A stretch of DNA of 64,000 nucleotides from Minisyncoccota bacterium (lineage in GTDB: Bacteria > Patescibacteriota > Minisyncoccia > UBA6257), in NCBI GenBank assembly GCA_028694995.1, contig JAQVJU010000002.1:2046-66045 (forward strand), written 5' to 3'. Below, piece by piece: positions 1 to 47,914 of this stretch. Each line of letters starts with the position of its first letter. Position 1 is the first letter of the stretch. The translations under genes and the position numbers were made by a program. The notes under the pieces are model-generated. The model did not search any database, was not told the origin of the DNA, and was given only the letters and a program-made list of their open reading frames with translations.

Positions 1-50
1 GGAATTGTCGGGTAATTAACTATTAAAACCAATAGTTACTTGGTTTTAAG

Positions 51-139
51 TTATCCCCAATAGACTTGACAAGGTTTTTATATTTGCTATACTAATAATG
101 CTGTCGTTTTTGGCTTGCCAAAGGCGACAGCATTTTTTT
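51..139 (+). repeat. Copy 1 of the repeated DnaA-box-like/promoter/hairpin module (TTATCCCCA variant - TTGACA - 16 nt - TATACT - hairpin GCTGTCG..CGACAGC - T7)
   Basis: Read directly. -35 TTGACA at 66-71, -10 TATACT at 88-93. Hairpin 100-131 followed by a T-tract. Near-identical to the modules at 2943, 5903, 6717 and 7563. Confidence 0.7.
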
Positions 140-257
140 ATCTCATATTATTTAGGAAGTTTTATATCTTTAATTCTTGACAAACTTATAATAAAGATAT
201 ATTATAACTCAATTAAGAACTTTGAAAACTTAATAAAAAAAAGAAAGGAGAGAAAAA

Positions 258-1379
258 ATGGAGAAGCTAATTGATTTTTTTCTATTTTTAATAGGAGTAA
301 GAAGAGAAAAGAAAATTCCTGTAAATTTTCAGCCGTCGGTTACTGTTTTAATCCCTGCTTACAAAGAAGAAGAAACAATAAAAGATACTATTTTAAGTAT
401 TCAGGCTCAGAGCTATCAAGTAGATGAAATTATTGTAATAGATGATTGCTCTAAGGACAAGACTGGTTTAATATCAAGATCTCTAGGGGCTAAAGTAGTT
501 CGTATCCCTAAAAATTCAGGGACTAAATCTAGGGCTCAAAATTTTGGTCTTAAGTTTGTTAAAACTGATTTAGTGATTACTGTTGATGCTGATACTATCC
601 TTGATCAAAAAGCGATAGAATTAATAATTCCTGCTATGAGTGATCGCAAAGTGCTTTCAGCTTGTGGGTTTGTTATTCCTCAAGTAATTAAAACTTTTTG
701 GGAAAGATGTCGCTTAATTCAGTATTTGTATTATATTAGTCTTAATAAAAATGCTCAATCTCACTGGCAGGTACCATTAGTGTCTTCAGGTTGTTTTTCA
801 GTTTTTAATACAAAGATGTTAAAAAAAATGGGTGGATTTCCTGAGGGGACGATAGTGGAGGATATGGATTTAACCTGGAGAGCCCATCTTGAAAAGAAAA
901 AAATTAAATTTATACCTGAAGCAGTTTGCTATCCAAAAGATCCAAATAATTGGCAACAATACAAGGCACAGGTAATGCGTTGGAATAGAGGATTTTTACA
1001 ATGTGTAAAAGAATATAAAGTATCATTGATAAAAAATCCTCGCTTATGCTTTTTTGTTGCTTGGTATCTTTTATCAGGGATTATCCAGCCTCTGTATTTA
1101 GGGTTTTTTATTTGGTATGTGTTTTGGTTTTTTTCAACAAAAGCCTATCTAGGGGAAGTAATTTTTATTTTAATATTTTTTGGACTTTTGTTGGAAATGT
1201 TAATTGTGTTTACTTTTGTTCTGATATCAGGAATTCGTTATAAGCACTTTAAAATAGCTTTAACCAGTTTTCCTTGCTATTGGTTAATAAGCCCAATTGA
1301 CACTTATTTGTTTGTAAATGCCCTAATACAAGAATGGGTTTTAGGGAGAAAACTTGAATCATGGGAAAAAGGGCATTGA
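258..1379 (+). CDS. Family 2 glycosyltransferase with C-terminal multi-pass membrane domain (processive polysaccharide synthase-like, PgaC/IcaA/cellulose-synthase-like architecture)
   Basis: N-terminal GT-A fold signatures (IPAYKEEETI, DDCSKD, VDAD = DXD). Hydrophobic C-terminal half with several predicted TM helices. RBS AAAGGAGAG upstream. Confidence 0.75.
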   Translation: MEKLIDFFLFLIGVRREKKIPVNFQPSVTVLIPAYKEEETIKDTILSIQAQSYQVDEIIVIDDCSKDKTGLISRSLGAKVVRIPKNSGTKSRAQNFGLKFVKTDLVITVDADTILDQKAIELIIPAMSDRKVLSACGFVIPQVIKTFWERCRLIQYLYYISLNKNAQSHWQVPLVSSGCFSVFNTKMLKKMGGFPEGTIVEDMDLTWRAHLEKKKIKFIPEAVCYPKDPNNWQQYKAQVMRWNRGFLQCVKEYKVSLIKNPRLCFFVAWYLLSGIIQPLYLGFFIWYVFWFFSTKAYLGEVIFILIFFGLLLEMLIVFTFVLISGIRYKHFKIALTSFPCYWLISPIDTYLFVNALIQEWVLGRKLESWEKGH

Positions 1380-1435
1380 AGGGAGGGATATACTTGATTG
1401 TAAAAAATATAAAAAAAGGAAAGGAGGTGAAATAA

Positions 1436-2209
1436 ATGTACGGAGGACCTCAAACTATATCTGGAAGTATAATTCATATTCTATGTCGTTACCCTATTTT
1501 AGTAGTTCCTATAGCTCTGGGCCTTATCTTTGGAATACCTAACTTATCTCAAGTTGCTGAAGATAGTTTACCTAGCTCAATGATAACTTTTGCTTTTGAT
1601 GATGGGTATTTTTCTACTTATGAAAAAGCTTTTCCTATTTTAGAAAAATATACATTTCCGGCTACGGTTTTTGTAATTTCTTCAGTAATTGGAGAACCAG
1701 GTCATATGACTGCGGAACAAATTCTAGAATTGGCAGATAAAGGATGGGAGATTGGTTCTCATACTGAAACTCATTCTGATTTAACTCAGCTTACTGATGA
1801 ACAATTAAAACATGAGCTTGTAAACTCAAAGCAACATCTTGAAGAACTGGGTTTAATAGTAAAGAACTTTGCCTCTCCTTATGGCAAGTATGACGAAAGG
1901 GTTATTAAAATGATAGCTAAGTATTATGATTCTCATCGAACCGCTTGGCCAGATGGGTTAAATGATTTACCCTTAGATAATTTAAATCGTTATTACTTGA
2001 AATCTGTTTCAGTTGAAGCTAGAACGACTATAGAAGAAGTGAAAGAGTGGGTAATAAAAGCAAAGAATGAAGGGAAATGGTTAATTCTCCTTTTCCATCG
2101 CATTGATGAAACAGGCGATTATAACTGGACCTCAAGGGATTTTGAAGAAATTGTTAAATTTGTGCACGAGGAAAAGTTTAAAGGAGTTTCAATTAAAGAA
2201 ATGAGGTGA
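1436..2209 (+). CDS. Polysaccharide deacetylase (NodB homology / CE4 family)
   Basis: N-terminal TM segment. CE4 motifs TFAFDDGY and GSHTETHSDL. RBS GGAGGTGA 7 nt upstream. Adjacent to the GT2 synthase. Confidence 0.8.
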   Translation: MYGGPQTISGSIIHILCRYPILVVPIALGLIFGIPNLSQVAEDSLPSSMITFAFDDGYFSTYEKAFPILEKYTFPATVFVISSVIGEPGHMTAEQILELADKGWEIGSHTETHSDLTQLTDEQLKHELVNSKQHLEELGLIVKNFASPYGKYDERVIKMIAKYYDSHRTAWPDGLNDLPLDNLNRYYLKSVSVEARTTIEEVKEWVIKAKNEGKWLILLFHRIDETGDYNWTSRDFEEIVKFVHEEKFKGVSIKEMR

Positions 2210-2355
2210 TGATTTTATAAAATGATAAAAGGGAAGATAAATCTTCCCTTTTTAATTTAAACCTTATATATTGACAAAATTGTATAAATGATATATAATC
2301 TTGATATATTTGAACTAGTAACTTGAAAATTAAAAAATGAAAGGAGGTGAAAGAA

Positions 2356-2898
2356 ATGAGAAAAAGATTGTTAATCTTAGTGGTTTTAATGGTATTATTC
2401 TTGGGTGCTTGTAGAGACGGAGCAATAATTCCTTCAGTGACAGAAGATATAGAGATTTGGGTAACTGGCTTTGAGCAAGAGGTATTCTGCAATAACGCTA
2501 AGGGTGTCACCAGGGTTTTTAATGGAGACTTACCTAAAGATTTGACAAGATGTTATGGTCCTCCTAGCTGTTGCCCTCCATGTAATTGCCCAGTATGTGA
2601 AGTATGTGAAGAATGCTCAGAATGTCCAACTTGCCCTTCTTGTGGACCTTGCTGCTGTTATTTGAAATGGGGAAATGTCTACGTTGATTACAAAATGAAG
2701 AATTTAGGGTTAAAGGATTTAACCGTTAAAAATGTTTGTTTTGAAATCACGTTTGAAGACAACACAAAAACTGTTAAATGCGTGGAATTACAAGAAGGTT
2801 TACTAGAGGGAGAAGTAAAAGGTAAACAAGCTAAATTCACTCTCTCTCCTGTCAAGAGAGTGATTTACGTTGTTGTGCAAAAAATAGAATATTATTAA
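2356..2898 (+). CDS. Cysteine-rich lipoprotein (signal peptide + lipobox LGAC; CxxC/CC cluster)
   Basis: Start chosen at the ATG preceded by AAGGAGGTGA. Lipobox L-G-A-C. A 30-residue tract CCPPCNCPVCEVCEECSECPTCPSCGPCCC. Confidence 0.55.
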   Translation: MRKRLLILVVLMVLFLGACRDGAIIPSVTEDIEIWVTGFEQEVFCNNAKGVTRVFNGDLPKDLTRCYGPPSCCPPCNCPVCEVCEECSECPTCPSCGPCCCYLKWGNVYVDYKMKNLGLKDLTVKNVCFEITFEDNTKTVKCVELQEGLLEGEVKGKQAKFTLSPVKRVIYVVVQKIEYY

Positions 2899-2942
2899 AA
2901 CCAAAAGGGACTATATTATATAGTCTCTTTTTCATTTTAAAA

Positions 2943-3031
2943 GTTATCCACAATAGACTTGACAAGGGATTTGGATTTGATATACTAATAATGCTGTCGT
3001 TTTTGGCTTGCCAAGGGCGACAGCATTTTTT
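2943..3031 (+). repeat. Copy 2 of the DnaA-box/promoter/hairpin module (TTATCCACA 2944-2952, TTGACA 2959-2964, TATACT 2981-2986, hairpin 2993-3024, T-tract)
   Basis: Read directly from the sequence. Confidence 0.7.
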
Positions 3032-3072
3032 ATTCCATAGTTTGCGAAATTATTAATTAATGAATAAAAGAC

Positions 3073-3199
3073 TTGACAATTTTTATTTATCATGTATACT
3101 GTTTTGTAGTGGGGTAAGCTTTTCCGGAAGAGCTTATAAAACCTATTTTCCAAAATTTTGGAGGTTTTAAAGTGGCGTTGAAAAACGCCACTTTTTTTT
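3073..3199 (+). ncRNA. Candidate small RNA: consensus sigma70 promoter (TTGACA 3073-3078, TATACT 3095-3100) driving a ~95-nt transcript that ends at the intrinsic terminator GTGGCG-TTGAAAAA-CGCCAC-T8 (3172-3199)
   Basis: Promoter spacing of 16 nt and a perfect terminator. An internal stem AAGCT-TTTCCGGAAG-AGCTT. No ORF above 9 codons. Confidence 0.4.
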
Positions 3200-3408
3200 A
3201 ACTTAATTCCTTGATTGTTTTAAAGAAGATCCTATTATTTATTGATAATATAATAATTAAGATTTACAAATTGAATTATTAAGTATTGATTAATAAAATT
3301 TTCTAATAATGATCTTTAAAATAACTCTTAAGAATTATTTTTTAAATTTAAAATTAAATTTTTAAAAATTTCCTTAAATTTGACAAATTTGTTTTTTATT
3401 TAAAAAAC

Positions 3409-3612
3409 TTGACAAGGACTTGACAAATAAAAAATAATAGAGTATCATGTAAGTACGGTGGGGTTCTCCCCTGGGTCTGCAAAGGCCCAGGGGAGACTAC
3501 TACTAAGTAGATAAACAATAAAAATGGTGGGATGCTCTCTTTTAAACAAATACAAAAGTTTATCTGCTTCCGAGGCAGATTAGTTAAATTGACGTTATTC
3601 GTCAATTTTTTT
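3409..3612 (+). ncRNA. Candidate structured small RNA (~160 nt): duplicated TTGACA (3409-3414, 3420-3425), 17-nt spacer, TATCAT (3443-3448), GC-rich stems, and terminator TTGACG-TTATTC-GTCAA-T7 (3589-3612)
   Basis: A strong 10-bp stem CTCCCCTGGG..CCCAGGGGAG, which is unusual against the AT-rich background. A second stem TCTGCTTC-CGA-GGCAGA. No plausible ORF. The antisense 69-aa ORF 3396..3605 is judged spurious. Confidence 0.45.
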
Positions 3613-3818
3613 AATTAACCACTAGATTAACTATTAGGGATTAAAAAAAGAATATTGCAGGAAGATTAGTGTTTGTGTTTTCCCCATATCAGAAATCCTC
3701 CTAATAGTTCATGATGGGACAATAGATCTATTAAAAGTGATTTTAATTTCCTTAATGATTAATTAAAAGATTATTTTGTTTCCTATGCATTTAATTATTT
3801 CAGATTTTAGTAAACATA

Positions 3819-4298
3819 ATGAATTTGATTAAACATAGAAAATTTTTACAATTATTATCATTTTTAGTAATAATAATTTGTTCTTTGTTATTTTTAATAA
3901 ATGATGTTGATGCTAAAAGAGGTTGTTGTTCTTGGCATGGCGGAGTATCTCATTGTGACTCATCGGTTGGGGGATATGTTTGTAATGATGGCACCTATAG
4001 TCCTTCTTGTACTTGCGGGGTTATAATCCCTGTTCCTATTCCTTCCCCAACTACTCTTGAGCCTACTACAACGACTACTAAACCTACAACTACAACAATA
4101 ATTGGTATAACACCCGCTGCTGTATTAGAAACAGAAATTCAAGAAAAAAACCTAGGAATAGAGGAAGAACTAGAATTTTCAGCTTCTGAAAAATTAATGG
4201 CACAAGTACATAAAGAAAACATTGGTATTTCTGCTTGGTGGTGGATAATAGGCATAGGGGCTATATCTTATTTGTTTGTCTATAAATTTAAAAAATAA
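3819..4298 (+). CDS. Secreted Cys/His-rich protein with Pro/Thr-rich linker and C-terminal TM anchor followed by basic tail (KFKK)
   Basis: N-terminal hydrophobic signal or anchor. Motif GCCSWHGGVSHCDSSVGGYVCNDGTYSPSCTC. Linker TTTTTKPTTTT. C-terminal TM segment. Confidence 0.5.
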   Translation: MNLIKHRKFLQLLSFLVIIICSLLFLINDVDAKRGCCSWHGGVSHCDSSVGGYVCNDGTYSPSCTCGVIIPVPIPSPTTLEPTTTTTKPTTTTIIGITPAAVLETEIQEKNLGIEEELEFSASEKLMAQVHKENIGISAWWWIIGIGAISYLFVYKFKK

Positions 4299-4334
4299 AA
4301 AACTAAAGGTCGAAAATTAATGAATTAAAAAAAT

Positions 4335-5846
4335 ATGAATAAAAAATTTCTTACAAAAACATTTGCAATTGCAATGGTATTAAGTTTATTACTTTCTAAT
4401 GGATTGATGTTAGGATTGGAGAGAGCAGAAGCAAAAGTAAGAAAAGAAGACCCTAGTAAAAATGGAAATGGGAATGGGAATGATGAATTATATCTTTGTC
4501 ATTTTGAAGATGAAGGAGATAATCCTTATACAAAGATACTAGGGTTTGAGAAGAATAGCATAGCTGGCGAGCATGATAAAGACGAAGATGATATTATTCC
4601 TAGTTATCTTTATACTTCAGACTGTGATGTGGAAAATCATAACTGTAAACTAAAAAAAATAGATTGGGGGAATTCTAAGACGCAAGGAAGTGTTTTGGGA
4701 GACTCTATTAATCTTGATGGGCATTTATGGCAAGGGTCACAAGAATTAGCTTCAATTATTGGGGATAGCACAAATATTAAGGTTTCTTTTTCAGATCCCC
4801 TTATGGCATATGTTATAGATCTTAAAATAAAAGAAAAAGATTCAAAAGGAAAAATATTATCTGAAAAAGATTATGCTTCTAAATGCCAAGGTCCAGAGGG
4901 TTGTACTCTTTCTCCGGAAGAAGGAATTAAGTTTTACTCTGTAAGTTGGGATCTGCAAAAAGTTAACAAATTTCACTATGAGTGTTATTATCCTGGTAAA
5001 AATTTGGAGAGTGGGCAAGACATTTTAAATAATAATTGCGAGGTTCCCTCAGAAAATGAAAATGGGGAAGGGAATGGGGAAGGGAATGGAGAAGGGGATG
5101 GAGAAGGGAATGGAGGAGGGAATGGAGAAGGAACTACAACTACTACAACAACAAGACCTGGTCCTACAGGTTCACATATTCCACCACAAGAAGCTCATGG
5201 GGAAGGCTCTTTAGGAGAACCTGGCCCTGGGGAGGGTATTGTAGCTGGTGCTGCTTGTGTTCCTTATATCCAAGAATATATTCAATATGGAGCTGATAAT
5301 GATCCATTTGAAGTTAGGAAATTACAAATCTTCTTAAATGGATATTTGGGATTGAATTTAGATGTTAATGGAATTTATGATTTAGAAACATTTGAAGCTG
5401 TAAAAACATTCCAACTTATGTTCAAGGATGATATTTTAGCTCCTTGGGTTGCAAATGGATGCTTACCTTCAAAAGAAATAGCTACGGGTTATGTTTATCG
5501 AACTACTAGTTGGGCGATTAATAAAGTTTTTTGCCCAGGAATGGAAATAGATATTTCTGATGAAATATGTTTTGGCTTAGGTGAAGGATTAGTTTTAGGA
5601 GAATCTATTGCCTTAGCTGATGATGGCTCAATGTCAGAAGGAGATATTTTAGATTTTCCTGTTAGTTCTGAACAAGAACCAGAAGAAGAAGTAATGGAAA
5701 TTTCAGAAACTGAAGATATAGAAACAACAGAATTAGAAGAAACAGAAGAAGAAACAGCAACTAATAAAGGAGCCATAATAGCTTTATTAGTTGTTTTAGC
5801 CTTAGGTGGCTTAGCTTACTTTATCTTTAGAGGAAAACGAACTTGA
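4335..5846 (+). CDS. Large secreted surface protein: signal peptide, GNGNGNG and GEGNGEGNG repeats, Thr7 linker, PG_binding_1-like domain, acidic E/T-rich tract, C-terminal TM anchor + RGKRT tail
   Basis: The segment VRKLQIFLNGYLGLNLDVNGIYDLETFEAVKTFQ matches the peptidoglycan-binding (PG_binding_1) consensus. The C-terminus AIIALLVVLALGGLAYFIFRGKRT forms a TM anchor plus basic tail. Confidence 0.6.
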   Translation: MNKKFLTKTFAIAMVLSLLLSNGLMLGLERAEAKVRKEDPSKNGNGNGNDELYLCHFEDEGDNPYTKILGFEKNSIAGEHDKDEDDIIPSYLYTSDCDVENHNCKLKKIDWGNSKTQGSVLGDSINLDGHLWQGSQELASIIGDSTNIKVSFSDPLMAYVIDLKIKEKDSKGKILSEKDYASKCQGPEGCTLSPEEGIKFYSVSWDLQKVNKFHYECYYPGKNLESGQDILNNNCEVPSENENGEGNGEGNGEGDGEGNGGGNGEGTTTTTTTRPGPTGSHIPPQEAHGEGSLGEPGPGEGIVAGAACVPYIQEYIQYGADNDPFEVRKLQIFLNGYLGLNLDVNGIYDLETFEAVKTFQLMFKDDILAPWVANGCLPSKEIATGYVYRTTSWAINKVFCPGMEIDISDEICFGLGEGLVLGESIALADDGSMSEGDILDFPVSSEQEPEEEVMEISETEDIETTELEETEEETATNKGAIIALLVVLALGGLAYFIFRGKRT

Positions 5847-5866
5847 AGGTTAGAAATTGGATAAAA

Positions 5867-5894
5867 ACAGGGCTAAATATAGCCCTGTTTTTTA
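5867..5894 (+). terminator. Intrinsic terminator of the 4335..5846 gene (ACAGGGCT-AAATAT-AGCCCTGT-T7)
   Basis: Perfect 8-bp GC-rich stem plus a T-tract. Confidence 0.7.
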
Positions 5895-5902
5895 TTTCTT
5901 AA

Positions 5903-5999
5903 GTTATCCACAAAAGACTTGACAAGGTTTTTATATTTGCTATACTATTAGTGCTGTCATTTAGAGAAGCTTGCTTCAATGAATGACAGCATTTTTTTT
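5903..5999 (+). repeat. Copy 3 of the module (TTATCCACA 5904-5912, TTGACA 5919-5924, TATACT 5941-5946, variant hairpin GCTGTCATT..AATGACAGC 5953-5990, T8)
   Basis: The stem is conserved and extended by compensatory changes while the loop is replaced. Confidence 0.7.
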
Positions 6000-6157
6000 A
6001 TAATTTTTTGATAAAAGAAGTGATTAGTCATCTCTTTTTTTATTTGTTAATTAATTAAAGATAGTTTTAATTTATATTGACTTTAAGTATTTAAAATGGT
6101 ATAATTATAAAAGGATAAAAGAGTTCTTTTAAAAATAAAAATAAGGAGGAAAAGAAA

Positions 6158-6694
6158 ATGGAAGAGAGAAAAAAGAAAGTTTTTATTTTAATTTTTGCTG
6201 TGGTTTTTATATTCATTTTAGTAGATTATGTAAATTGGAGATTATCCCATAATTGGGAGATTGTAGATACCAATTTACCAGTTGAAACCATAAACAGCAC
6301 CGTATGGAGAAGCGCAAGTATAGATATACTTGATCCTATCAAATCTCCTCCAAAAAGTTATGAGTATTCAAATCTTAGGATAGCGGCATTTAAGGTACGG
6401 TACCCTAAAGCTAAGGGAGGAGGATATGTTCATGAAGTTTTTCTTAGGGAGTGGTTTAAGAGGAGTAACTTAAAAGTTCGCTATACGGGCTTTGAAGGGA
6501 TACCGGATTTTTATATTGCTGTAGAATTCATACAGGGAAGAATGGAAATCATCAGTGATAGCAAGTTATATAATTATAAAGGAGAAATCTTTATAGAATT
6601 ATTTTCCAATAATAAGAATTTACTGGCTCAAAAAAGAATTAAGGTAAACATAAATAACAAACCGCCAGAGGTAAAAGAATTAACAGGGCTTTAA
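6158..6694 (+). CDS. Hypothetical N-terminally membrane-anchored protein, paralog A of a tandem pair
   Basis: Strong RBS AAGGAGGA. N-terminal TM helix. Shares the motifs YPK.K, NLK and F..V.FI.GR..I...Y.GEI.I.L with the 6967..7539 product. Confidence 0.5.
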   Translation: MEERKKKVFILIFAVVFIFILVDYVNWRLSHNWEIVDTNLPVETINSTVWRSASIDILDPIKSPPKSYEYSNLRIAAFKVRYPKAKGGGYVHEVFLREWFKRSNLKVRYTGFEGIPDFYIAVEFIQGRMEIISDSKLYNYKGEIFIELFSNNKNLLAQKRIKVNINNKPPEVKELTGL

Positions 6695-6706
6695 AGCCCT
6701 GTTTTT
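6683..6706 (+). terminator. Intrinsic terminator overlapping the stop codon of 6158..6694 (ACAGGGCT-TTAA-AGCCCTGT-T5)
   Basis: The stop codon TAA lies in the hairpin loop. Confidence 0.65.
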
Positions 6707-6716
6707 CATTTCTTGA

Positions 6717-6806
6717 GTTATCCACAAAAGACTTGACAAGGTTTTTAAATTTGCTATACTAATAATGCTGTCGTTTTTGGCTTGCCAGAAGCGGCAGCAT
6801 TTTTTT
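6717..6806 (+). repeat. Copy 4 of the module (TTATCCACA 6718-6726, TTGACA 6733-6738, TATACT 6755-6760, hairpin GCTGTCG..CGGCAGC with a U-G wobble, T7)
   Basis: Read directly from the sequence. Confidence 0.7.
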
Positions 6807-6966
6807 ATAATTTTTTGATAAAAGAGATGATTTATCATCTCTTTTTTAATGGTTAATTAATTAAAGATAGTTTTAATTTATATTGACTTTAATCATTTAA
6901 AATGGTATAATTATAAAAAGATAAAAGAGTTCTTTTAAAAATAAAAATTAAAGAGGAGAGAAAAAA

Positions 6967-7539
6967 ATGAAAAAGGTTTTTATAGTTATTCTAATTATAA
7001 TTATAGGGTTATTTTTAATAGATTTTATAGGTTATGTAATAAAATCAAGCTATAAAGAGAATAAGGAGCTGGGGGGAAGTTGGGAAATCGAAAGTTTAGA
7101 CCTGCCAATCATAATAAGAAAAAACTGTATCGTAGTGGGGGGTCCAAGTTGGGAACCAGAAGACCCTTTGCCCTCAAGAGTTGAAAGGGATGTATTTTTA
7201 GAAATGAGGGTAGCCAATTTTAGAATATACTACCCTAAAACAAAAAATATAGTCCATGAAATTGATCTCCAAATGTGGGAAAAGCAGGGAAACTTGAAGT
7301 TATATGTCGCTAGACCTGAAGAGTCGAACCCCTTCAAAATGAGTACTGTAAAGTTTATAGAGGGGAGAGTAGATATCTGGCTTAGAATGGAAGTCGGTAA
7401 GTATGAGGGGGAGATTCATATTCAGCTAATTAATAATGACGGGATATTAATAGGTGAAGGCAAGGCCTTTGTGGAAGTAAATATAGAAAAGGGGGTGCTA
7501 GAGATACTAGAAGAAGAATTTAATATAACAGGGTCTTAA
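6967..7539 (+). CDS. Hypothetical N-terminally membrane-anchored protein, paralog B of the tandem pair
   Basis: A ~150-bp upstream region, including a TTGACT-17-TATAAT promoter and RBS, is about 90% identical to that of 6158. The proteins are much more diverged than these flanks. Confidence 0.5.
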   Translation: MKKVFIVILIIIIGLFLIDFIGYVIKSSYKENKELGGSWEIESLDLPIIIRKNCIVVGGPSWEPEDPLPSRVERDVFLEMRVANFRIYYPKTKNIVHEIDLQMWEKQGNLKLYVARPEESNPFKMSTVKFIEGRVDIWLRMEVGKYEGEIHIQLINNDGILIGEGKAFVEVNIEKGVLEILEEEFNITGS

Positions 7540-7562
7540 GGCTCTGTTTTTATTATTTCTGA

Positions 7563-7652
7563 GTTATCCACAAAAGACTTGACAAGGTTTTTATATTTGC
7601 TATACTAATAATGCTGTCGTTTTTGGCTTGCCAGAAGCGGCAGCATTTTTTT
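7563..7652 (+). repeat. Copy 5 of the module (TTATCCACA 7564-7572, TTGACA 7579-7584, TATACT 7601-7606, hairpin 7613-7644, T7)
   Basis: Read directly from the sequence. Confidence 0.7.
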
Positions 7653-7744
7653 ATAATTCTTATTATTGACAAAAAGACAATAACAAGATATTATCTAAAT
7701 TAGATATTTAGTACTTTGAAAATTAAAAAAGGAGATATTAAAAA

Positions 7745-8113
7745 ATGAAAAGGAAATTGGTTTTAGGAGTTTTTGTATTTTTGATTTTAATTATTTTTTC
7801 TTGTTTTGCTAATGCTCAATATAATTTTCTTTCTGAACAATCAAATTGGGGAATTGAGCATTTAAAAGAAAAGTATCACATAAAAGATAAGCAAAATAAA
7901 GAAGAAATAATAGTAGAGGGTTTTATCTGGGGAGTTATCGTCCCAGAAAATGAGGGATATTCTTTTATAGAATATACAGAAATGATTGAGGATAAAGAAT
8001 ATATAATAACAGAAATAATTATAGAAAATCCTCAAGGGTCTATTAGGATAGTATGGGGACCAGGGGCACAGAATAATCCTTTAGACGTCCCTAAAATTAT
8101 AGTGAGGAGGTGA
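7745..8113 (+). CDS. Small secreted hypothetical protein (signal peptide ...FANA-Q)
   Basis: ORF with RBS GGAGATA. N-terminal hydrophobic segment. Confidence 0.4.
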   Translation: MKRKLVLGVFVFLILIIFSCFANAQYNFLSEQSNWGIEHLKEKYHIKDKQNKEEIIVEGFIWGVIVPENEGYSFIEYTEMIEDKEYIITEIIIENPQGSIRIVWGPGAQNNPLDVPKIIVRR

Positions 8114-8119
8114 AAAGAA

Positions 8120-8398
8120 ATGAGAGATGAAATGAAAGAATTTCTATTCGTATGGATAGGGATTCTGGCTATTGTAGGATTGGTTTCCAAATTTGTCCAT
8201 GGCCTATATATAAGAACAGTTCTTAGTTTTCTGGAAAAATATATGGATACATCATTGGCCATGACATTGTTTTGGATTGGGTGGTTATTCTTTCTTTTGC
8301 TGGTTTATAACATTTACGTGAATATTACCCTTTACGACAATTGGGATTGGGAAAAAAATAAAATAAAAGATTGGGAAGAAAAAAGAAAAAGGAGGTAA
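8120..8398 (+). CDS. Small integral membrane hypothetical protein (2 TM)
   Basis: RBS GGAGGTGA immediately upstream. Two hydrophobic helices. Confidence 0.35.
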   Translation: MRDEMKEFLFVWIGILAIVGLVSKFVHGLYIRTVLSFLEKYMDTSLAMTLFWIGWLFFLLLVYNIYVNITLYDNWDWEKNKIKDWEEKRKRR

Positions 8399-8754
8399 GG
8401 ATTTTGAAGAACAGGATAGATAAAGTTCCTAATATTGAGGTTGTAATAGAGGATAGGGAGAGAAATAAAAAAATTGTCATTGCTCAATATCCTAAATCAA
8501 TTATTCTACCTGAAAGTTACTGTGAGGATATGGCAGAGGTAATTTTTTCTTTTTTGAAAAAAAATACCGGCAAATTTACTGGTAAGATAAAGAAAGATTT
8601 TAAGAACTTTGTTTTTTACGAAAAAATGGTAAATAAACAACCATTTGAAGTAAAAAACAACAATAATAATTTTAAAAAAAGGAAGACAAAATATAGGAAT
8701 AGTAAAAAACTAACCTTCTTAAGAAAGAGATAGAATGGAATTATTAAAAAGTAT

Positions 8755-8786
8755 AGGGCTGATATTGTTATCAGCCCTGTTTTTTA
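8755..8786 (+). terminator. Intrinsic terminator (AGGGCTGATA-TTGT-TATCAGCCCT-T6) closing the accessory region before ychF
   Basis: Perfect 10-bp stem plus a T-tract. Confidence 0.6.
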
Positions 8787-8826
8787 TTATAATAATAAGA
8801 GAATCTAAAATTGTAATTAACATATT

Positions 8827-9891
8827 ATGAATTTATCAATTGGAATTGTGGGTTTGCCAAATGTGGGAAAATCTACTCTTTTTGAGATTATTACTAAAAA
8901 ACAAGTAGATAGGGAAAATTATCCTTTTTGTACGATAGAGCCTAATGTTGGTGTGGTGGCAGTGCCTGATATTCGGGTTGATAAATTAGCTCATTTAAAT
9001 CAATCAGAAAAAAAGATCTATACCACTGTAGAGTTTGTTGATATTGCTGGATTAGTTAAAGGAGCAAGTAAAGGAGAGGGTTTGGGTAATCAGTTTTTAG
9101 CTCAAATCAGAGAAACTGATGAGATTGTTTGCGTTTTAAGATGTTTTCAAAATGATAAAATTGTTAATACCTTGGATCAAATAGATCCATTATTGGAAAA
9201 AGAGATTTTAGAAACAGAATTGATTTTAAAAGATTTAGAAACAGTTAATAAAAGATTGACTTCTTTAGAAAAAGAAATCAAAACAGGAAAAAAAAGCATG
9301 ATGGAAGAAGAAAGAATATTAGCTAAGGCACAGGATTTATTGCAACAAGGCCAGATTCTTTTTGAACAAGAGTGGGAAGAAGAGGAAAAGAAAGTTCTTG
9401 AAACTTATCAATTATTAACATTAAAACCTAGATTGTATTTGTTAAATGGACAAGAGAGTGAAGTACCAGCTCATATCTTAGAAACTTTTAATAAGAATAA
9501 TTGGCCATATTTAATTATGGATGTGGCCATGGAATTAGAAACCATAGATTTATCTGAAAGCGATAGAATAGATCTTGGGTTATCGCCTCAATCAGAAATT
9601 AATACCTTGATTCAATCAACATACAAGTTATTGGATTTAATAACTTTTTTTACTATTGAATCTAATCAAACCAGAGCTTGGATTTTATTAAAAGGATTAA
9701 AAGCTCCTGATGCTGGGGGAGTAATTCATACAGATTTTCAAGAAAAATTCATTAAGGCTGAGATTATTAATTGGGAAAAACTATTAGAAGCTGGTTCTTG
9801 GAGTTTAGCTAGACAAAAAGGCTGGCTTCAATTAGAAGGTAAGGATTATGTGGTTCAAGATGGTGATGTGATTGTGTTTAAGCATGGATAA
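8827..9891 (+). CDS. ychF: Ribosome-binding ATPase YchF (Obg-family GTPase)
   Basis: G1 motif GIVGLPNVGKST. TGS-domain C-terminus ending DGDVIVFKHG. Confidence 0.9.
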   Translation: MNLSIGIVGLPNVGKSTLFEIITKKQVDRENYPFCTIEPNVGVVAVPDIRVDKLAHLNQSEKKIYTTVEFVDIAGLVKGASKGEGLGNQFLAQIRETDEIVCVLRCFQNDKIVNTLDQIDPLLEKEILETELILKDLETVNKRLTSLEKEIKTGKKSMMEEERILAKAQDLLQQGQILFEQEWEEEEKKVLETYQLLTLKPRLYLLNGQESEVPAHILETFNKNNWPYLIMDVAMELETIDLSESDRIDLGLSPQSEINTLIQSTYKLLDLITFFTIESNQTRAWILLKGLKAPDAGGVIHTDFQEKFIKAEIINWEKLLEAGSWSLARQKGWLQLEGKDYVVQDGDVIVFKHG

Positions 9892-10159
9892 GATAATTGC
9901 AAAAAGATATTTGTTCTATGGAAAAGTCCAAGGAGTGGGTTTTAGAGCCATAACAAAATGGTTAGCTCGGAAATACAATATCTTTGGTTGGGTTAAGAAT
10001 AATGATGATGGCAGTGTTGATTTATTTATTGAGGGTAAGGAAAAAGATATGAATAAATTTATTAATCACCTAAAAGGATTTTTAAAAGATAATATTGAAG
10101 AAATACAAGAAAAGAAAGAAAAAGAACAAGGATTTAAAGAATTTAAAATACTGTTATAA
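9872..10159 (+). CDS. acyP: Acylphosphatase
   Basis: Motif YGKVQGVGFR and a GWV.N..DGSV signature. Overlaps the ychF 3' end. Confidence 0.8.
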   Translation: MCLSMDKIIAKRYLFYGKVQGVGFRAITKWLARKYNIFGWVKNNDDGSVDLFIEGKEKDMNKFINHLKGFLKDNIEEIQEKKEKEQGFKEFKILL

Positions 10160-10160
10160 A

Positions 10161-11244: not shown

Positions 11245-12099
11245 ATGAAGAAAAAGGTATATATTATTAACAAATCAGGAGAAAAAGAACTGTTTTCCAA
11301 ACAAAAAGTTTACAATAGCGCTCGGAGAGTTGGCGCCTCAAAAGAATTAGCCGAATCAATTGCCACAACGATTAGAAAAGAAATCTTTCCAGGTATGACC
11401 ACTTTTGAGATTTATGAAAGAGTGGAAGAGATATTAGATAAAGAATATCCTAAAGGTAGTATTCGTTTTCGTTTAAAAGAAGCCATTATGGCCTTAGGAC
11501 CAAGTGGTTTTCCTTTTGAAAAATATATTGGAGATGTTTTACAAAGAATGGGTTTTAAAGTAGAGCTTAATCAATATGTTGATGGAGCTTGTGTCACTCA
11601 TGAAGTAGATGTTGTGGCCGTAGAAAAAAAATATTGTTTGATAGGAGAATGTAAATATCATACCTTGCCTGGGAAAAAAACAGATTTAAGAATTGGTTTA
11701 CATCATTATGCTCGTTGTCTAGATATTGAATTAGGAGATTATTGTAAAAAAAAGTTTAAAAATCTTAAACCAAGGCCAATTATTATTACTAATAATAAAT
11801 TCACTAACCAATTGTTAAAGTATGCTGAATGTGTTGGTTTAGATTTATTAGGTTGGAAATATCCTCGAGGCACTGGGTTAGAATATATTGTAGAATCAGA
11901 ACAGTTTTATCCTATTACCATCTTACCTTCTTTTAAAGATGAGTTATTAGAAGCGTTTTCTAAAGAGAAGATAATGCTAGCTCAGGAATTATTAAATATG
12001 GAGGTGACAGAATGTGCAAAAAAATTACAAGTTTCTAAACAAAAAATCTCTACTCTTAAAAAAGAAGCAGAGATTTTGTTTGCAAAAAACAGCTTTTAG
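11245..12099 (+). CDS. ATP-cone domain fused to Mrr-like (PD-(D/E)XK) restriction-endonuclease domain
   Basis: N-terminal ATP-cone (VYIINKSGEKELFSKQKVYNS). Nuclease core HEVDVVAVEK...IGECKYH. Confidence 0.55.
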   Translation: MKKKVYIINKSGEKELFSKQKVYNSARRVGASKELAESIATTIRKEIFPGMTTFEIYERVEEILDKEYPKGSIRFRLKEAIMALGPSGFPFEKYIGDVLQRMGFKVELNQYVDGACVTHEVDVVAVEKKYCLIGECKYHTLPGKKTDLRIGLHHYARCLDIELGDYCKKKFKNLKPRPIIITNNKFTNQLLKYAECVGLDLLGWKYPRGTGLEYIVESEQFYPITILPSFKDELLEAFSKEKIMLAQELLNMEVTECAKKLQVSKQKISTLKKEAEILFAKNSF

Positions 12100-12204
12100 A
12101 TAAAAAAATGCTGTTGACTTGAAGAGCAAGCTCATCTAATCAACAGCACCTTTATTGTATCAAATGGAGAATGTTTGTCAAGTCAAATAACTATTATAAA
12201 AATT

Positions 12205-28318: not shown

Positions 28319-29677
28319 ATGCAAAAAAAGAAACAAAATTTATCAAAATCTGTTAAAAAAACTAAAAAGACAACCAAGTCATTAAAAAGAAAAAAGATAG
28401 TAAAGAAAGCTCCTAAGAAAGCAAAGACTTTAAAAAAGAAGCCAGTAGTGAGAAAAAAAACAGTGGTAAAAAAGAAACCAATAGTGAAGAAGAAAATAAC
28501 AAAAAAGAAGCCTGCAGTAAGAAGGAAGCCTGTAGTGAAAAAGAAAAAAGTTGTAAAGAAAAAACAAGTATTAACAGGAACAAAAACACAAAAGAAAAAA
28601 GGAAAAGTAGATAAAGTAAAAGAACTAGTAGAAAGAGGAAAAACAAGACGATTTGTAACTCAAGATGAGATTTTAAAATTCTTTCCACGAATAGAAGAAG
28701 ATTTAGATTTTCTAGAACAGCTTTATGATGCCTTAGCAGAGGCAAATATTGAGGTAATAGAAAGTGGAGATTTATTAATACCTGATGCTGAGATAACTGA
28801 AAAAGAATTAAATGAAGCGGTTAAAGTTTCGCCAACTGATACAGTGTCTAGTAATGTGCAGTCATATTTAAGAGAAATAGGTAAAGTGCCATTACTTACT
28901 GTAGAAGAAGAAAGAAGTTTGGCTAAAAAAGTAGAAGAAGGTGATGAGCAGGCTAGAAAGAAAATGATTGAGGCTAATTTACGTTTGGTTGTTTCTATTG
29001 CTAAACGCTATATCGGCAGAAGCAGTAATTTGAATTTATTAGATTTAATTCAAGAAGGGAATATTGGTTTGTCAAAAGCAGTTAATAAATTTGATTACAA
29101 AAAAGGGTTTAAGTTTTCTACTTATGCCACTTGGTGGATTAGACAGGCGATTACCAGGGCTTTGGCTGATCAGGGGAGAACTATAAGAATTCCAGTGCAT
29201 ATGGTAGAAACAATTACCAAATATTTGAAAACCAGAAGGTTATTAGCTCAAACCTTAGGTCGGGATCCTTTACCAGAAGAAATTGCTCAAGAAATGGGAA
29301 AAGATGTAGAAGAGATTCTTTACTTAATGCAAATTTCTCAAAGAACCTCATCTTTGAATCAACCTTTAGGCGATGAAGAAAGTGGTAGTGAATTAGCTGA
29401 TTTCATATCAGATACAAAAACAATCACCCCAGATAATTATGCAACCAGAGAACTTCTTAAAAGTGAATTAAGAAAGATTATGGAAGAATTGTCAGAAAGG
29501 GAAAGAGAGATTATTAGGATGAGATTTGGTTTGGATGATGGGATGACTCATACTTTAGAAGAGGTGGGTAAGGCTTTTGGGGTTACCAGAGAAAGAATCA
29601 GGCAGATAGAAGCTAAGACGTTGGAAAAATTAAAAGACCATGCTGAAGCTAAAAGGTTAAAGGAATTTTTAAAATAG
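28319..29677 (+). CDS. rpoD: RNA polymerase sigma factor RpoD with lysine-rich N-terminal extension
   Basis: Regions 2-4 conserved ([13 protein letters not shown], region 4 [23 protein letters not shown]). About 100 N-terminal residues of K-rich P/V-KKK repeats. Confidence 0.9.
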
Positions 29678-45997: not shown

Positions 45998-46023
45998 AAC
46001 CGGCTTGGATTAACCAGCCGGTT
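45998..46023. terminator. Bidirectional intrinsic terminator (A-tract - AACCGGCTTGG-ATTAA-CCAGCCGGTT - T-tract) between convergent genes
   Basis: GC-rich 10-bp stem flanked by A and T tracts. Confidence 0.65.
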
Positions 46024-46028
46024 ATTAT

Positions 46029-46334: not shown

Positions 46335-46346
46335 CTTTTACCTCCT

Positions 46347-46595: not shown

Positions 46596-46735
46596 TTGCT
46601 TTTCCTCTCTTTCTTTTTAAATTTTCAAAATACTGATATTATTATATCAGTTATAAAATATTTTGTCAATGGAAAGTAAATGGTAAATCAGTAAAAAATA
46701 TGATAAAATGTTTTAAGTAAAAGATTAATTCAAAT

Positions 46736-47911: not shown

Positions 47912-47914
47912 TTA

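What the first reader, a model, noticed from the sequence alone, without database searches (positions are those of the whole stretch)
6000..7660. Tandem duplicated cassette: regulatory DNA ~90% identical, coding regions strongly diverged
Two consecutive ~800-bp units share the same layout: about 150 bp of promoter and RBS, a gene for an N-terminally anchored ~180-aa protein, a terminator, and the DnaA-box module. The upstream non-coding segment is nearly identical between copies, for example GATAAAAGA.GTGATT.TCATCTCTTTTTT...TTAATTAAAGATAGTTTTAATTTATATTGACTTTAA..ATTTAAAATGGTATAATTATAAAA.GATAAAAGAGTTCTTTTAAAAATAAAAAT. The encoded proteins retain only scattered motifs (YPK.K, NLK, F..V.FI.GR, Y.GEI.I.L.N). 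Conserved flanks with fast-evolving coding sequence is the signature of diversifying selection or gene conversion. That is typical of surface or interaction proteins such as host-range or immunity proteins.
Basis: seen in the sequence. Interest (0 to 1): 0.55.

Follow-up and report, generated by a model that had tools for sequence, protein, structure and literature searches.

The report
Shared expression frame around diverged paralogs
Two neighbouring genes for small membrane-anchored surface proteins of an uncultured ultra-small (CPR, Paceibacterota) bacterium are old, very different copies, yet they sit in almost identical promoter/terminator "frames". One part of that frame is a repeated tiny promoter-plus-hairpin unit that also separates other swappable cell-envelope genes.

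Summary
Window 5896-6138 and 6710-6944 are 88.5% identical, and 96.6% over the gene promoter and 5'UTR. The two ORFs (6158-6694, 178 aa; 6967-7539, 190 aa) share only 33-35% of residues.

It is not fast in-situ diversification. Synonymous sites between the paralogs, and between them and the two copies in a close relative (Paceibacterota MAG STE_68), are saturated: dS about 1.3-2.6, against 0.31 for neighbouring YchF. dN/dS is 0.2-0.5. Four independent assemblies carry both ORFs with no difference.

The conserved DNA has two components.
- A ~110-nt module: a DnaA-box-like 9-mer, a consensus promoter, a 17-bp hairpin with a CUUG loop, and a U-run. It has six copies in the window and many in relatives. 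The hairpin is supported by covariation. No Rfam family matches.
- A family-specific promoter/5'UTR that was recently homogenised between the two genes. The upstream region and the coding sequence give discordant relationships.

The locus lies in a cell-envelope replacement island downstream of rplJL. There, the same kind of conserved frame holds different ORFs in related genomes.

The proteins are lineage-restricted orphans: an N-terminal TM helix plus a generic Ig-like β-sandwich. The module's function is inferred, not shown.

The parts
5863..5892 (+). Intrinsic terminator of the upstream 503-aa surface-protein gene (CAGGGC...GCCCTG + T-run). It is homologous to the terminators at the ends of winA and winB.
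   Evidence: 79% identical to 6679-6709
5897..6010 (+). Module copy M3. TTATCCACA at 5904-5912; P1 TTGACA-16-TATACT with TGn at 5919-5946; 'type 2' hairpin at 5950-5993 (-22.9 kcal/mol, CUUG loop); U8.
   Evidence: 103 bits
6010..6044 (+). Hairpin 2: an A-run/T-run flanked stem that looks like a weak bidirectional terminator. Conserved with compensatory changes in STE_68 (AGAG/CTCT -> GGG/CCC).
6077..6105 (+). P2, the gene's own promoter (TTGACT-17-TATAAT, extended -10 TG)
6112..6157 (+). Predicted 5'UTR, with the conserved motif CTTTTAAAAATAAA at 6126-6139 and SD AAGGAGG at 6143-6149
6158..6694 (+). winA: 178-aa signal-anchored protein (TM helix 3-30 plus β-sandwich). Its last codons T-G-L-stop lie in the terminator stem and loop.
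6682..6703 (+). Terminator of winA; the stop codon lies in its loop
6711..6818 (+). Module copy M4. TTATCCACA at 6718-6726; P1 at 6733-6760; 'type 1' hairpin at 6764-6801 (-24.9 kcal/mol); U7.
   Evidence: 121 bits
6815..6849 (+). Hairpin 2, second copy
6883..6911 (+). P2, second copy. The P2+5'UTR stretch is 96.6% identical to the first copy (85/88 nt, 6051-6138 vs 6857-6944).
6918..6966 (+). Predicted 5'UTR, second copy (motif at 6932-6945, SD GAGGAG at 6953-6958)
6967..7539 (+). winB: 190-aa paralog, 33-35% identical to winA
7527..7548 (+). Terminator of winB; the stop codon lies in its loop
7557..7664 (+). Module copy M5 (96% identical to M4). It is followed by a different promoter at 7666-7694 and the 122-aa/92-aa/109-aa small envelope-protein genes.
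44..151 (+). Module copy M1, upstream of the GT2 glycosyltransferase / polysaccharide deacetylase cassette
2937..3044 (+). Module copy M2, downstream of the Cys-rich lipoprotein gene
12090..12203 (-). Diverged module copy M6, antisense to both flanking genes. It has no DnaA-like box.

Best explanation
winA and winB are ancient tandem paralogs of a tiny, lineage-restricted family of signal-anchored, Ig-like β-sandwich envelope proteins. They lie in a cell-envelope replacement island downstream of rplJ-rplL in a Paceibacterota (CPR) genome.

Each ORF sits in a tight, conserved expression frame, in this order:
1. terminator of the previous gene
2. a ~110-nt module
3. a second hairpin
4. its own promoter P2
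5. a 5'UTR with SD
6. the ORF
7. a terminator whose 5' arm supplies the last codons

The high non-coding identity has two causes.

(1) The module is an autonomous multi-copy element. It has a consensus promoter that ends 4 nt before a 17-bp RNA hairpin with a G(CUUG)C loop and a U-run. It is kept by purifying selection across genomes and patched by conversion between copies. Inferred: it is transcribed into a ~40-nt hairpin RNA with a paired 5' end, and it also terminates or insulates the upstream gene.

(2) The P2/5'UTR segment was homogenised recently between the two genes by non-allelic recombination, with the breakpoint at the SD/start codon. This could be gene conversion of the upstream region, or equivalently the swap of an old ORF allele into a duplicated frame.

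The coding sequences are too diverged to be converted and remain under purifying selection. Between strains, the conserved frames act as homology arms, so whole ORFs or cassettes are exchanged, inserted or lost.

Shown: the anatomy, the copy numbers, the hairpin covariation, the saturated dS, the discordant relationships, and the alternative cassettes.
Inferred: transcription of the module, the recombination mechanism, and surface exposure of the proteins.
For: Identity profile.

Paralogy: BLASTP E 8e-19.

Age of the ORFs:
- winA/winB: dN 0.62, dS 1.5
- winA/steA: dS 2.1
- winB/steB: dS not computable (saturated)
- YchF between the same genomes: dS 0.31, dN/dS 0.03

Discordance:
- Protein identities: winA-steA 46%, winA-steB 39%, winA-winB 34%.
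- P2/5'UTR identities: winA_up-winB_up 97%, winA_up-steB_up 82%, winA_up-steA_up 63% (alignment).

Module:
- Six covariance-model hits in the window and 37 in relatives' loci.
- Consensus promoter and terminator calls.
- Hairpin folds at -23 to -25 kcal/mol, z -5.6 to -7.4.
- 95% of cells paired; 7 of 17 pairs have compensatory changes; 0/500 shuffles reach the covariation score; many G-U pairs, which implies sense-strand RNA.
- Occurs antisense to its neighbours and in direct tandem in L012.

Cassette exchange within frames:
- Window 2-260 vs STE_68 is 92-93% identical up to the ATG. After it comes GT2 (373 aa) in the window and an unrelated 237-aa ORF in STE_68.
- GT2+deacetylase (window, L028) versus 237 aa + GT2 (465 aa) + GH113 (STE_68, L009).
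- A 420-aa M16-like gene is present only in STE_68 and L034.
- The 122-aa gene is present only in the window.
- Strain contigs differ by blocks, not by scattered SNPs.

Family size: 6 hits in 1.84 billion representative proteins.

Fold.
Against: - No transcript data, so promoter activity, termination and the small RNA are predictions from sequence.
- A ~40-nt fully paired hairpin has no obvious single-stranded seed, and no convincing antisense target was found in the window. An RNA function beyond termination or stability is therefore speculative.
- Strong purifying selection on a promoter could by itself keep some identity. The gene-conversion inference rests on one relative genome plus one low-coverage contig (L034, coverage 0.46x).
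- With dS saturated, dN/dS values are unreliable, and site-specific positive selection cannot be excluded with only six family members.
- Homology-arm exchange is inferred from mosaic patterns. Some breakpoints are not at modules: the right edge of the GT2 cassette replacement lies at about window 2208.
Confidence: 0.6

Rival explanations
1. Recent tandem duplication followed by in-situ diversifying (positive) selection on the coding sequence, while the regulatory DNA stays as it was.
For: - Flanks are about 90% identical while the proteins are 33-35% identical.
- The proteins are probably extracytoplasmic.
- Neighbouring envelope genes are also highly diverged between relatives.
Against: - Third-codon positions are only 47% identical and dS is 1.5 between the paralogs. 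dS is about 2 against the positional counterparts in STE_68, although the genomes differ by dS 0.31 at YchF. dN/dS is 0.2-0.5.
- There are zero differences across both ORFs in four independent assemblies; the MAG contig L040 has 2 changes in winA.
- Both slots already exist in STE_68, so the duplication is older than the species split.
Confidence: 0.07
2. All non-coding identity is due to purifying selection on functional signals (promoters, terminators, UTR). No conversion or recombination is involved, and the duplication of frame and ORF is equally old.
For: - Core P2 elements and the 5'UTR motif are conserved in every family member, including STE_68 and L034.
- The module is conserved at 87-92% between genomes, above its flanks.
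Against: - Spacer positions with no obvious function are also identical between winA_up and winB_up (97%). The same segment is only 82% and 63% identical to the STE_68 copies.
- In STE_68 the two upstream regions differ strongly from each other, and hairpin 2 is replaced by another small promoter+hairpin unit.
- Upstream and ORF relationships are discordant.
Confidence: 0.15
3. A programmed variation system: integron-like cassettes with the hairpin module as the recombination site, or a phase- or antigenic-variation locus like the Mycoplasma vlp/vsp families.
For: - ORF cassettes are delimited by a conserved hairpin-containing repeat, all in one orientation within the island.
- Presence/absence and order of cassettes differ between relatives.
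- Conserved 5' region with a divergent mature protein.
Against: - No recombinase, integrase or invertase domain in any island ORF of the window, nor in the relatives' cassette ORFs that were scanned.
- Cassettes carry their own promoters and terminators.
- The hairpin is preceded by a consensus promoter and followed by a U-run, and it contains strand-specific G-U pairs. This is RNA terminator anatomy, not an attC site.
- No inverted copies flank the ORFs.
- No lipobox and no switchable homopolymer variation. There are zero differences across both ORFs in four assemblies.
Confidence: 0.04
4. The module is primarily a DNA-level DnaA-binding or titration site, or a DnaA-regulated promoter, that couples envelope-gene expression to replication. 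The hairpin is only a terminator.
For: - All four exact TTATCCACA sites in the 64-kb window lie in modules, 6 nt upstream of the -35.
- The 9-mer is kept as TTATCC[A/C]CA in most copies in relatives.
Against: - It is absent from M6 and from several diverged but otherwise intact modules: L009-456, L012-10173, L013-1226.
- One copy per genome has TTATCCCCA.
- The copies are paralogous, so the four sites are not independent occurrences.
- With one mismatch allowed, the 9-mer is only marginally above chance in the window (29 found against 18.8 expected; 2 of 100 shuffles reach 29).
- No binding data.
Confidence: 0.12

Closest known systems
Replacement-type flexible genomic islands for cell-envelope genes (O-antigen/glycosylation islands; the Haloquadratum walsbyi cell-wall island, PMC4535781 as listed)
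   Same: Close relatives carry non-homologous or anciently diverged envelope genes (glycosyltransferases, secreted or anchored orphans) at the same locus between conserved flanks. Variation comes as blocks exchanged by recombination.
   Different: The conserved anchors here are not flanking housekeeping genes. They are short (100-290 nt) intergenic expression frames repeated inside the island, so the exchange unit can be as small as a single ORF.
Short intergenic repeat families with transcriptional side effects: REP/BIME, Correia (CREE) elements, BOX/RUP (my own knowledge; the review PMC3184786 appears in the listing but was not read)
   Same: About 100-nt, multi-copy, intergenic and hairpin-forming. 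It can supply promoter or terminator activity and acts as a recombination substrate.
   Different: No terminal inverted repeats or target duplications were seen in the aligned copies. It contains a complete consensus promoter firing into the hairpin. Copy number is low: six in the 64-kb window, five of them co-oriented within its first 7.7 kb (the whole-genome count is unknown). No associated transposase is visible.
Multi-copy small-RNA gene families with conserved promoters (Vibrio Qrr1-5, streptococcal csRNAs, Listeria LhrC1-5; my own knowledge)
   Same: Several paralogous tiny transcription units, each with its own conserved promoter (here with a possible factor site upstream of the -35) and an intrinsic terminator. 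Some are in tandem (L012).
   Different: The predicted RNA (~40 nt) is only the terminator hairpin. It has no single-stranded seed and no target was found. No Rfam family matches.
Surface-protein gene families with near-identical 5' regions and divergent bodies (Mycoplasma vlp/vsp/vsa; my own knowledge)
   Same: Tandem genes for membrane-anchored surface proteins that share a highly conserved upstream region while the mature protein differs.
   Different: There is no lipoprotein signal, no internal repeats, no phase-switch element (poly-A spacer or invertible site), and no variation among the assemblies checked. Conservation stops before the signal-anchor coding region instead of including it.
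Concerted evolution / gene conversion restricted to part of duplicated loci
   Same: Within-genome copies of the upstream region (97%) are more alike than their counterparts in a relative (82% and 63%), and they are discordant with the ORF relationships.
   Different: The converted tract is purely regulatory and ends at the SD. The coding parts are too diverged (about 53% nt in aligned codons) to take part.

Membership tests
Plain recent tandem duplication | Coding regions as similar as the flanks | tested here: not met
   Non-coding 88.5% (96.6% in P2/UTR) against 33-35% aa and 57% nt in the CDS
Diversifying (positive) selection on young paralogs | dN/dS > 1 with unsaturated dS | tested here: not met
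   NG86: winA/winB dN 0.62, dS 1.5; winA/steA dN 0.47, dS 2.1; dN/dS 0.2-0.5. The genome baseline dS is 0.31 at YchF. Site-level tests are not possible with 6 sequences.
Diversifying (positive) selection on young paralogs | Strain-level polymorphism concentrated in the ORFs | tested here: not met
   No differences in winA or winB in L035-L038 (L039 covers winB only); 2 differences in winA in the MAG contig L040. Variation elsewhere comes as blocks.
Gene conversion / non-allelic recombination of the upstream region | Within-genome copies more alike than orthologous copies, and a phylogeny discordant with the adjacent ORF | tested here: met
   P2/UTR: winA_up-winB_up 97%, winA_up-steB_up 82%, winA_up-steA_up 63%. 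Proteins: winA-steA 46%, winA-winB 34%.
Intrinsic (Rho-independent) terminator | Stable stem-loop followed directly by a U-run, conserved as a structure | tested here: met
   17-bp stems with T7-8; -23 to -25 kcal/mol; 95% paired, 7 compensatory pairs. Termination activity was not tested.
Sigma-70-type promoter (P1 of the module, P2 of the genes) | -35/-10 hexamers at 16-18 nt spacing, conserved across copies | tested here: met
   11/12 matches with TGn in all copies. CTTGACAA and TA...T are invariant in 20 diverse copies, and the -10 variants TATACT, TATAAT and TACAAT keep the consensus positions. Activity is not testable here.
DnaA box / DnaA-regulated promoter | TTATCCACA-type 9-mer present and conserved | tested here: inconclusive
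   Exact in 4 of 6 window copies, and those are the only exact sites in the 64 kb. TTATCCCCA in M1. Absent from M6 and several diverged copies.
DnaA box / DnaA-regulated promoter | DnaA binding and an effect on transcription | not testable with these tools
   Needs EMSA, ChIP or reporter assays
Integron cassette array | Adjacent intI tyrosine recombinase | tested here: not met
   No recombinase domain in the island ORFs of the window, nor in the relatives' cassette ORFs that were scanned. The rest of the window was not scanned.
Integron cassette array | Promoterless cassettes ending in attC sites | tested here: not met
   Each cassette has its own consensus promoter, SD and terminator. The repeat is promoter + hairpin + U-run with G-U pairs.
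MITE / Correia-like mobile repeat | Terminal inverted repeats and target-site duplication | tested here: not met
   By inspection of 31 distinct copies. Conservation starts at the box or the -35 and ends at the U-run, with no inverted ends.
Any Rfam 15 RNA family | Covariance-model score at or near the gathering threshold | tested here: not met
   Only tRNA-Lys passes in the whole window. Nothing credible at E <= 1 in 1-8200.
Base-pairing sRNA family | Single-stranded seed and complementary targets | tested here: not met
   The predicted RNA is fully paired apart from a 4-nt loop. Only scattered 10-11-nt complements occur in the window.
Ig-like β-sandwich surface or adhesin domains | Fold match | tested here: inconclusive
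Replacement flexible genomic island | Different or anciently diverged genes at the same position in close relatives, between conserved sequences | tested here: met

The most novel reading that the evidence does not exclude
The ~110-nt module is a previously undescribed class of autonomous micro-gene in CPR bacteria. Its consensus promoter, possibly DnaA-responsive, makes a ~40-nt, 5'-paired CUUG-loop hairpin RNA. Its copies also insulate neighbouring envelope-gene cassettes and act as portable homology arms. Together these would amount to a recombinase-free 'expression-frame' cassette-exchange system that lets ultra-small symbionts swap single surface-protein ORFs.
Probability: 0.2. Interest if true: 0.7.

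Novelty: new variant of a known kind. Interest (0 to 1): 0.45.

Why it matters
CPR/Patescibacteria are episymbionts. Their surface proteins probably mediate host attachment and phage exposure, yet almost nothing is known about how their envelope genes are regulated or diversified.

This locus shows that in one Paceibacterota lineage the unit of variation is a single ORF dropped into a conserved promoter/terminator frame. It also shows that the frames contain a conserved, covariation-supported promoter-hairpin module with no Rfam counterpart.

If the module is transcribed, it is a new small-RNA or insulator element for a phylum with very few known regulators. The module also explains why assemblies of these genomes break here. 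Contig ends fall at or near modules in the fetched STE_68 contig (320,000 + 7,676 = 327,676 bp, with a module about 170 nt from its end). They also fall there in several of the metagenome contigs that carry the island genes.

For the finding as stated, the main lesson is cautionary. 'Conserved flanks, diverged ORF' here reflects old alleles plus recombination of the regulatory DNA, not rapid positive selection.

Tried and rejected
- Homology searches for function. A word-index search with winA found nothing. Pfam, NCBIfam, PADLOC and PDB sequence searches were empty. A BFVD fold search gave nothing below E 0.05. The afdb50 fold library was unavailable.
- Integron, shufflon or phase-variation system. 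No recombinase, no attC anatomy, no population variation.
- MITE. No TIR or TSD.
- Micro-ORF inside the module (MLSFLACQKRQHFFIIF, starting at the ATG of the stem). Rejected because the start is GTG or ACG in other hairpin types, the peptide changes completely, and the base pairs are kept instead.
- DNA palindrome or operator reading of the hairpin. Disfavoured by abundant G-U pairs, which would be C-A on the other strand.
- Leader or attenuator of the downstream gene. Disfavoured because every downstream gene has its own promoter after one or two terminators. In addition, M6 is antisense to both neighbours and L012 has two modules in direct tandem.
- Antisense targets of the hairpin arms in the window. 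Only chance-level 10-11-mers.
- Phage origin of the module. No match in 2.9 million viral contigs with two patterns.
- Assembly artefact. Rejected by independent assemblies.
- About half of the 23 metagenome pattern hits were chance matches inside coding sequence and were discarded.
- A promoter pattern search with the wrong spacer length returned nothing and was ignored.
- Literature searches found no description of this module.
Full report
**1. Observation**

Reading window 5400-8400 and aligning 5896-6709 with 6710-7555 confirms two consecutive units of 814 and 846 bp.

Identity is high from the start of each unit to just before the Shine-Dalgarno sequence, then collapses. By segment:
- DnaA-like box + P1 promoter: 94% (51/54)
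- hairpin 1: 69% (two hairpin types)
- U-run + hairpin 2: 86%
- P2 promoter + 5'UTR: 96.6% (85/88)
- SD to ATG: 77%
- whole block: 88.5% (216/244)
- coding sequence: 57% nt in a heavily gapped alignment

The ORFs 6158-6694 (178 aa, 'winA') and 6967-7539 (190 aa, 'winB') are clear but distant paralogs: BLASTP gives 33% identity, E 8e-19, and MAFFT gives 35%.

The motif patterns have no matches in shuffled sequence. The arrangement recurs with zero differences across both ORFs in four independent metagenome assemblies; the MAG contig GCA_029549265.1 differs at 3 positions.

**2. Anatomy of one unit**

(a) The intrinsic terminator of the preceding gene: CAGGGC-loop-GCCCTG + T-run, at 5863-5892, 6682-6703 and 7527-7548. 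For winA and winB the 5' arm and loop of this terminator encode the last residues T-G-X-stop. The same holds for the two homologs in the relative. The conserved 3' flank therefore begins three codons inside the ORF.

(b) A ~110-nt module, in this order:
- GTTATCCACAAAAGAC
- TTGACA, a 16-nt spacer with TGn, TATACT
- 4 nt
- a 17-bp hairpin (-23 to -25 kcal/mol, z about -6 to -7) closed by G(CUUG)C
- U7-8

(c) A weaker A-run/T-run flanked hairpin 2 (6010-6044 and 6815-6849).

(d) The gene's own promoter P2, TTGACT-17-TGgTATAAT (6077-6105 and 6883-6911).

(e) A ~46-nt 5'UTR containing CTTTTAAAAATAAA and the SD.

(f) The ORF.

**3. The module is a separate, multi-copy element**

Exact and near-exact searches found five co-oriented copies at 47, 2940, 5900, 6714 and 7560.

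A covariance model was built from 20 distinct copies drawn from the window and relatives. It finds those five copies at 103-121 bits and a sixth, diverged copy on the minus strand at 12090-12203 (69 bits). That sixth copy lies between two plus-strand genes and lacks the DnaA-like box.

The model gives 37 hits in loci from relatives. These include two modules in direct tandem in L012. In L013 the same two modules are separated by a 251-aa minus-strand ORF.

Hairpin support:
- 95.3% of cells paired
- 7 of 17 pairs with compensatory double changes
- 0 of 500 shuffles reach the covariation score
- slid registers drop to 38-64% paired
- many U-G pairs, which would be C-A on the other strand, so the structure is selected in the sense-strand RNA

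The CUUG loop closed by G-C and the first four stem pairs (GCUG/CAGC) are invariant or nearly so.

The -35 and -10 hexamers are kept in all copies. The -10 variants (TATACT, TATAAT, TACAAT) retain the consensus positions.

No Rfam 15 family matches. There are no terminal inverted repeats. The small ORF starting in the stem is not conserved between hairpin types. The module does not occur in 2.9 million viral contigs.

In several loci the module follows a stop codon directly, with no other terminator. Examples are the STE_68 420-aa gene, the L028 360-aa ORF and the L012 92-aa ORF. The hairpin therefore also serves as the upstream gene's terminator.

My reading, which is inferred: the module is a tiny autonomous transcription unit whose product is a ~40-nt, 5'-paired hairpin RNA with a U tail, and it doubles as a terminator or insulator between cassettes. 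What the RNA does beyond that is unknown. It has no single-stranded seed, and no target was found in the window.

**4. The DnaA-like box**

All four exact TTATCCACA sites in the 64-kb window lie in modules, 6 nt upstream of the -35. Most relatives keep TTATCC[A/C]CA.

Three points limit the inference. The copies are paralogous, so the sites are not independent. The box is absent from M6 and from several otherwise intact modules. With one mismatch allowed, the 9-mer is only marginally above chance in the window (29 found against 18.8 expected; 2 of 100 shuffles reach 29). It may be a real DnaA or other factor site for the island copies, but it is not a defining part of the module, and binding is untested.

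**5. A close relative gives the evolutionary reading**

A genome scan with the module pattern found one organism: Candidatus Paceibacterota MAG STE_68, contig JAQVJR010000001.1. Its loci L001 and L003 are syntenic with window 1-9998 at 85-95% nt identity. Upstream of the window start lie rplJ-rplL.

STE_68 also has two family genes in the same place: steA (185 aa) and steB (178 aa).

Protein identities:
- winA-steA 46%
- winA-steB 39%
- winB-steB 33%
- winA-winB 34%
- steA-steB 39%

Nei-Gojobori estimates:
- YchF between the genomes: dS 0.31, dN/dS 0.03
- 159-aa gene: dS 0.09
- winA/steA: dS 2.1
- winB/steB: not computable (saturated)
- winA/winB: dS 1.5, dN 0.62
- dN/dS across family pairs: 0.2-0.5

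The neighbouring 92-aa, 109-aa and Cys-rich lipoprotein genes also show dS of about 2.

These ORFs are therefore much older than the split of the two genomes. They are old alleles and paralogs under purifying selection that have been placed or retained in the locus by recombination. They are not young copies diverging quickly.

Consistent with that, strain contigs differ from the window by blocks. The lipoprotein gene is about 35% different and the sRNA island about 5% different, while everything from 4335 to 10160 is identical apart from a single synonymous change in YchF in two of the contigs.

**6. Why the regulatory DNA is so similar**

The module part is explained by section 3. It is conserved between genomes at 87-92%, above its flanks. 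Its hairpin types are shuffled relative to position:
- Window: type 2 before winA; type 1 before winB and before the 122-aa gene.
- STE_68: type 1 after the 745-aa gene; type 2 before both steA and steB.

This indicates patchy exchange among copies.

The P2/5'UTR part is family-specific. Its core is conserved in all family members. Its pairwise identities are:
- winA_up-winB_up 97%
- winA_up-steB_up 82%
- winA_up-steA_up 63%

In STE_68 the two upstream regions differ strongly from each other, and another small promoter+hairpin unit replaces hairpin 2 upstream of steA. An 'A-type' ORF (winA, closest to steA) is thus joined to a 'B-type' promoter, with the switch at the SD.

That discordance is direct evidence for non-allelic recombination in the window lineage after it split from STE_68. 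There are two possible routes: conversion of the upstream region of one slot by the other, or insertion of an old ORF allele into a duplicated frame. The data do not separate them.

**7. The same pattern recurs across the island**

- Window 2-260 (M1 plus promoter and UTR) is 92-93% identical to STE_68 right up to the ATG. After it, the window has a GT2 glycosyltransferase (373 aa) plus a polysaccharide deacetylase. STE_68 has an unrelated 237-aa ORF, a different GT2 (465 aa) and a GH113.
- Both alternatives reappear, bounded by modules, in more distant metagenome relatives L028 and L009.
- After M5 the frame is conserved (module 87%, module end to ATG 72%). It is followed by a 122-aa gene in the window and directly by the 92-aa gene in STE_68.
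- A 420-aa M16-peptidase-like gene sits between two modules only in STE_68 and L034.
- All five island genes share a 5'UTR motif, CTTTGAAAAYTWAA-like, 15-25 nt upstream of the SD.
- No recombinase domain is present in any island ORF scanned.

The locus is best described as a replacement-type cell-envelope island. Short conserved expression frames, rather than flanking core genes, provide the homology for exchanging single ORFs or small cassettes.

**8. The proteins**

A profile of winA and winB against 1.84 billion representative proteins finds only six sequences:
- winB itself
- a winA fragment
- steA and steB
- P0004, on the low-coverage contig L034, again between modules
- P0006, a single copy in an unrelated context without modules

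There is no Pfam, NCBIfam, PADLOC or PDB sequence match.

The inference is a signal-anchored extracytoplasmic binding or structural module. The specific function is unknown.

**9. Comparison with known systems and verdict**

The finding works like a replacement flexible island combined with partial concerted evolution of paralogs. The module resembles intergenic repeat families (REP/BIME, Correia) and multi-copy sRNA genes, but it fails the defining features of each. It has no TIR or TSD and no seed or targets. It also fails the integron tests: no integrase, and the cassettes have their own promoters.

It is a new variant of known kinds rather than something categorically new.

It is wrong on fast-evolving coding sequence and diversifying selection.

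The most interesting residue is the unexplained promoter-hairpin module and its possible role as an insulator, a small RNA and a homology arm in CPR genomes. Interest 0.45.

Noticed in passing
window 2940-3800: An ORF-free 'sRNA island' with two more consensus promoter-to-terminator units, about 3073-3200 (~95-nt RNA) and about 3420-3612 (~165-nt RNA with a strong CUCCCCUGGG...CCCAGGGGAG hairpin). The region is conserved at 87% in STE_68 (L001) and 81% in L034. Rfam gives nothing credible; the best hit there is a Histone3 stem-loop below its gathering score (E 0.0018).
   Followed up: partly
window 12090-12203 (minus strand): A sixth, diverged module copy (69 bits). It is antisense to both neighbours and back-to-back with the start of the PPDK-like gene. 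It has no DnaA-like box.
   Followed up: yes
window 220-233, 2321-2334, 6126-6139, 6932-6945, 7714-7727: A shared 5'UTR motif (CTTTGAAAAYTWAA-like) 15-25 nt upstream of the SD of all five island genes. This suggests a common ancestral expression frame or a common regulator. It is not statistically enriched window-wide at 2 mismatches.
   Followed up: partly
window 258-2209 vs L001 1691-4954: Alternative glycan cassettes at the same position. The window and L028 carry GT2 (373 aa) + polysaccharide deacetylase. STE_68 and L009 carry a 237-aa ORF + GT2 (465 aa) + GH113. The shared frame is conserved up to the ATG.
   Followed up: yes
window 4335-5846: A 503-aa secreted, C-terminally anchored protein with (GNGE)n repeats and a weak PG_binding_1 domain. 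In STE_68 the N-terminal half is replaced: 745 aa with a long (GQ)n run.
   Followed up: partly
window 2347-2898: A Cys-rich lipoprotein (CPxC-type repeats) whose repeat region differs in length between strains (180 vs 224 aa). It is about 35% different in otherwise near-identical strain contigs L035 and L036.
   Followed up: partly
L012 10041-10264 vs L013 257-1317: Two modules directly adjacent in one metagenome contig and separated by a 251-aa minus-strand orphan ORF in another. The variable segment runs exactly from the U-run of the first module to the -35 of the second.
   Followed up: partly
L003 3560-3680 (minus strand) and L034 2440-2520: Upstream of steA and P0004, hairpin 2 is replaced by another small promoter+hairpin unit: TTGACAAGG...TTATACT followed by a GUGGCC... 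stem (steA copy: GUGGCCGCUUGAGUCGAUUGACCAAGUGGCC) and a U-run. It looks like a second type of tiny hairpin gene.
   Followed up: no
window 28432-28600: An 18-nt tandem repeat (7 copies) inside a coding region. It is Lys/Glu/Ser-rich low complexity.
   Followed up: no
window ~46000-48000: Cumulative GC skew stops rising and the gene strand switches from plus to minus, so transcription and replication arms appear to converge here.
   Followed up: no
L002 7400-7507 (end of STE_68 contig): The 327,676-bp STE_68 contig ends about 170 nt after a module copy. Several metagenome contigs also end near modules. The repeat probably breaks short-read assemblies.
   Followed up: partly
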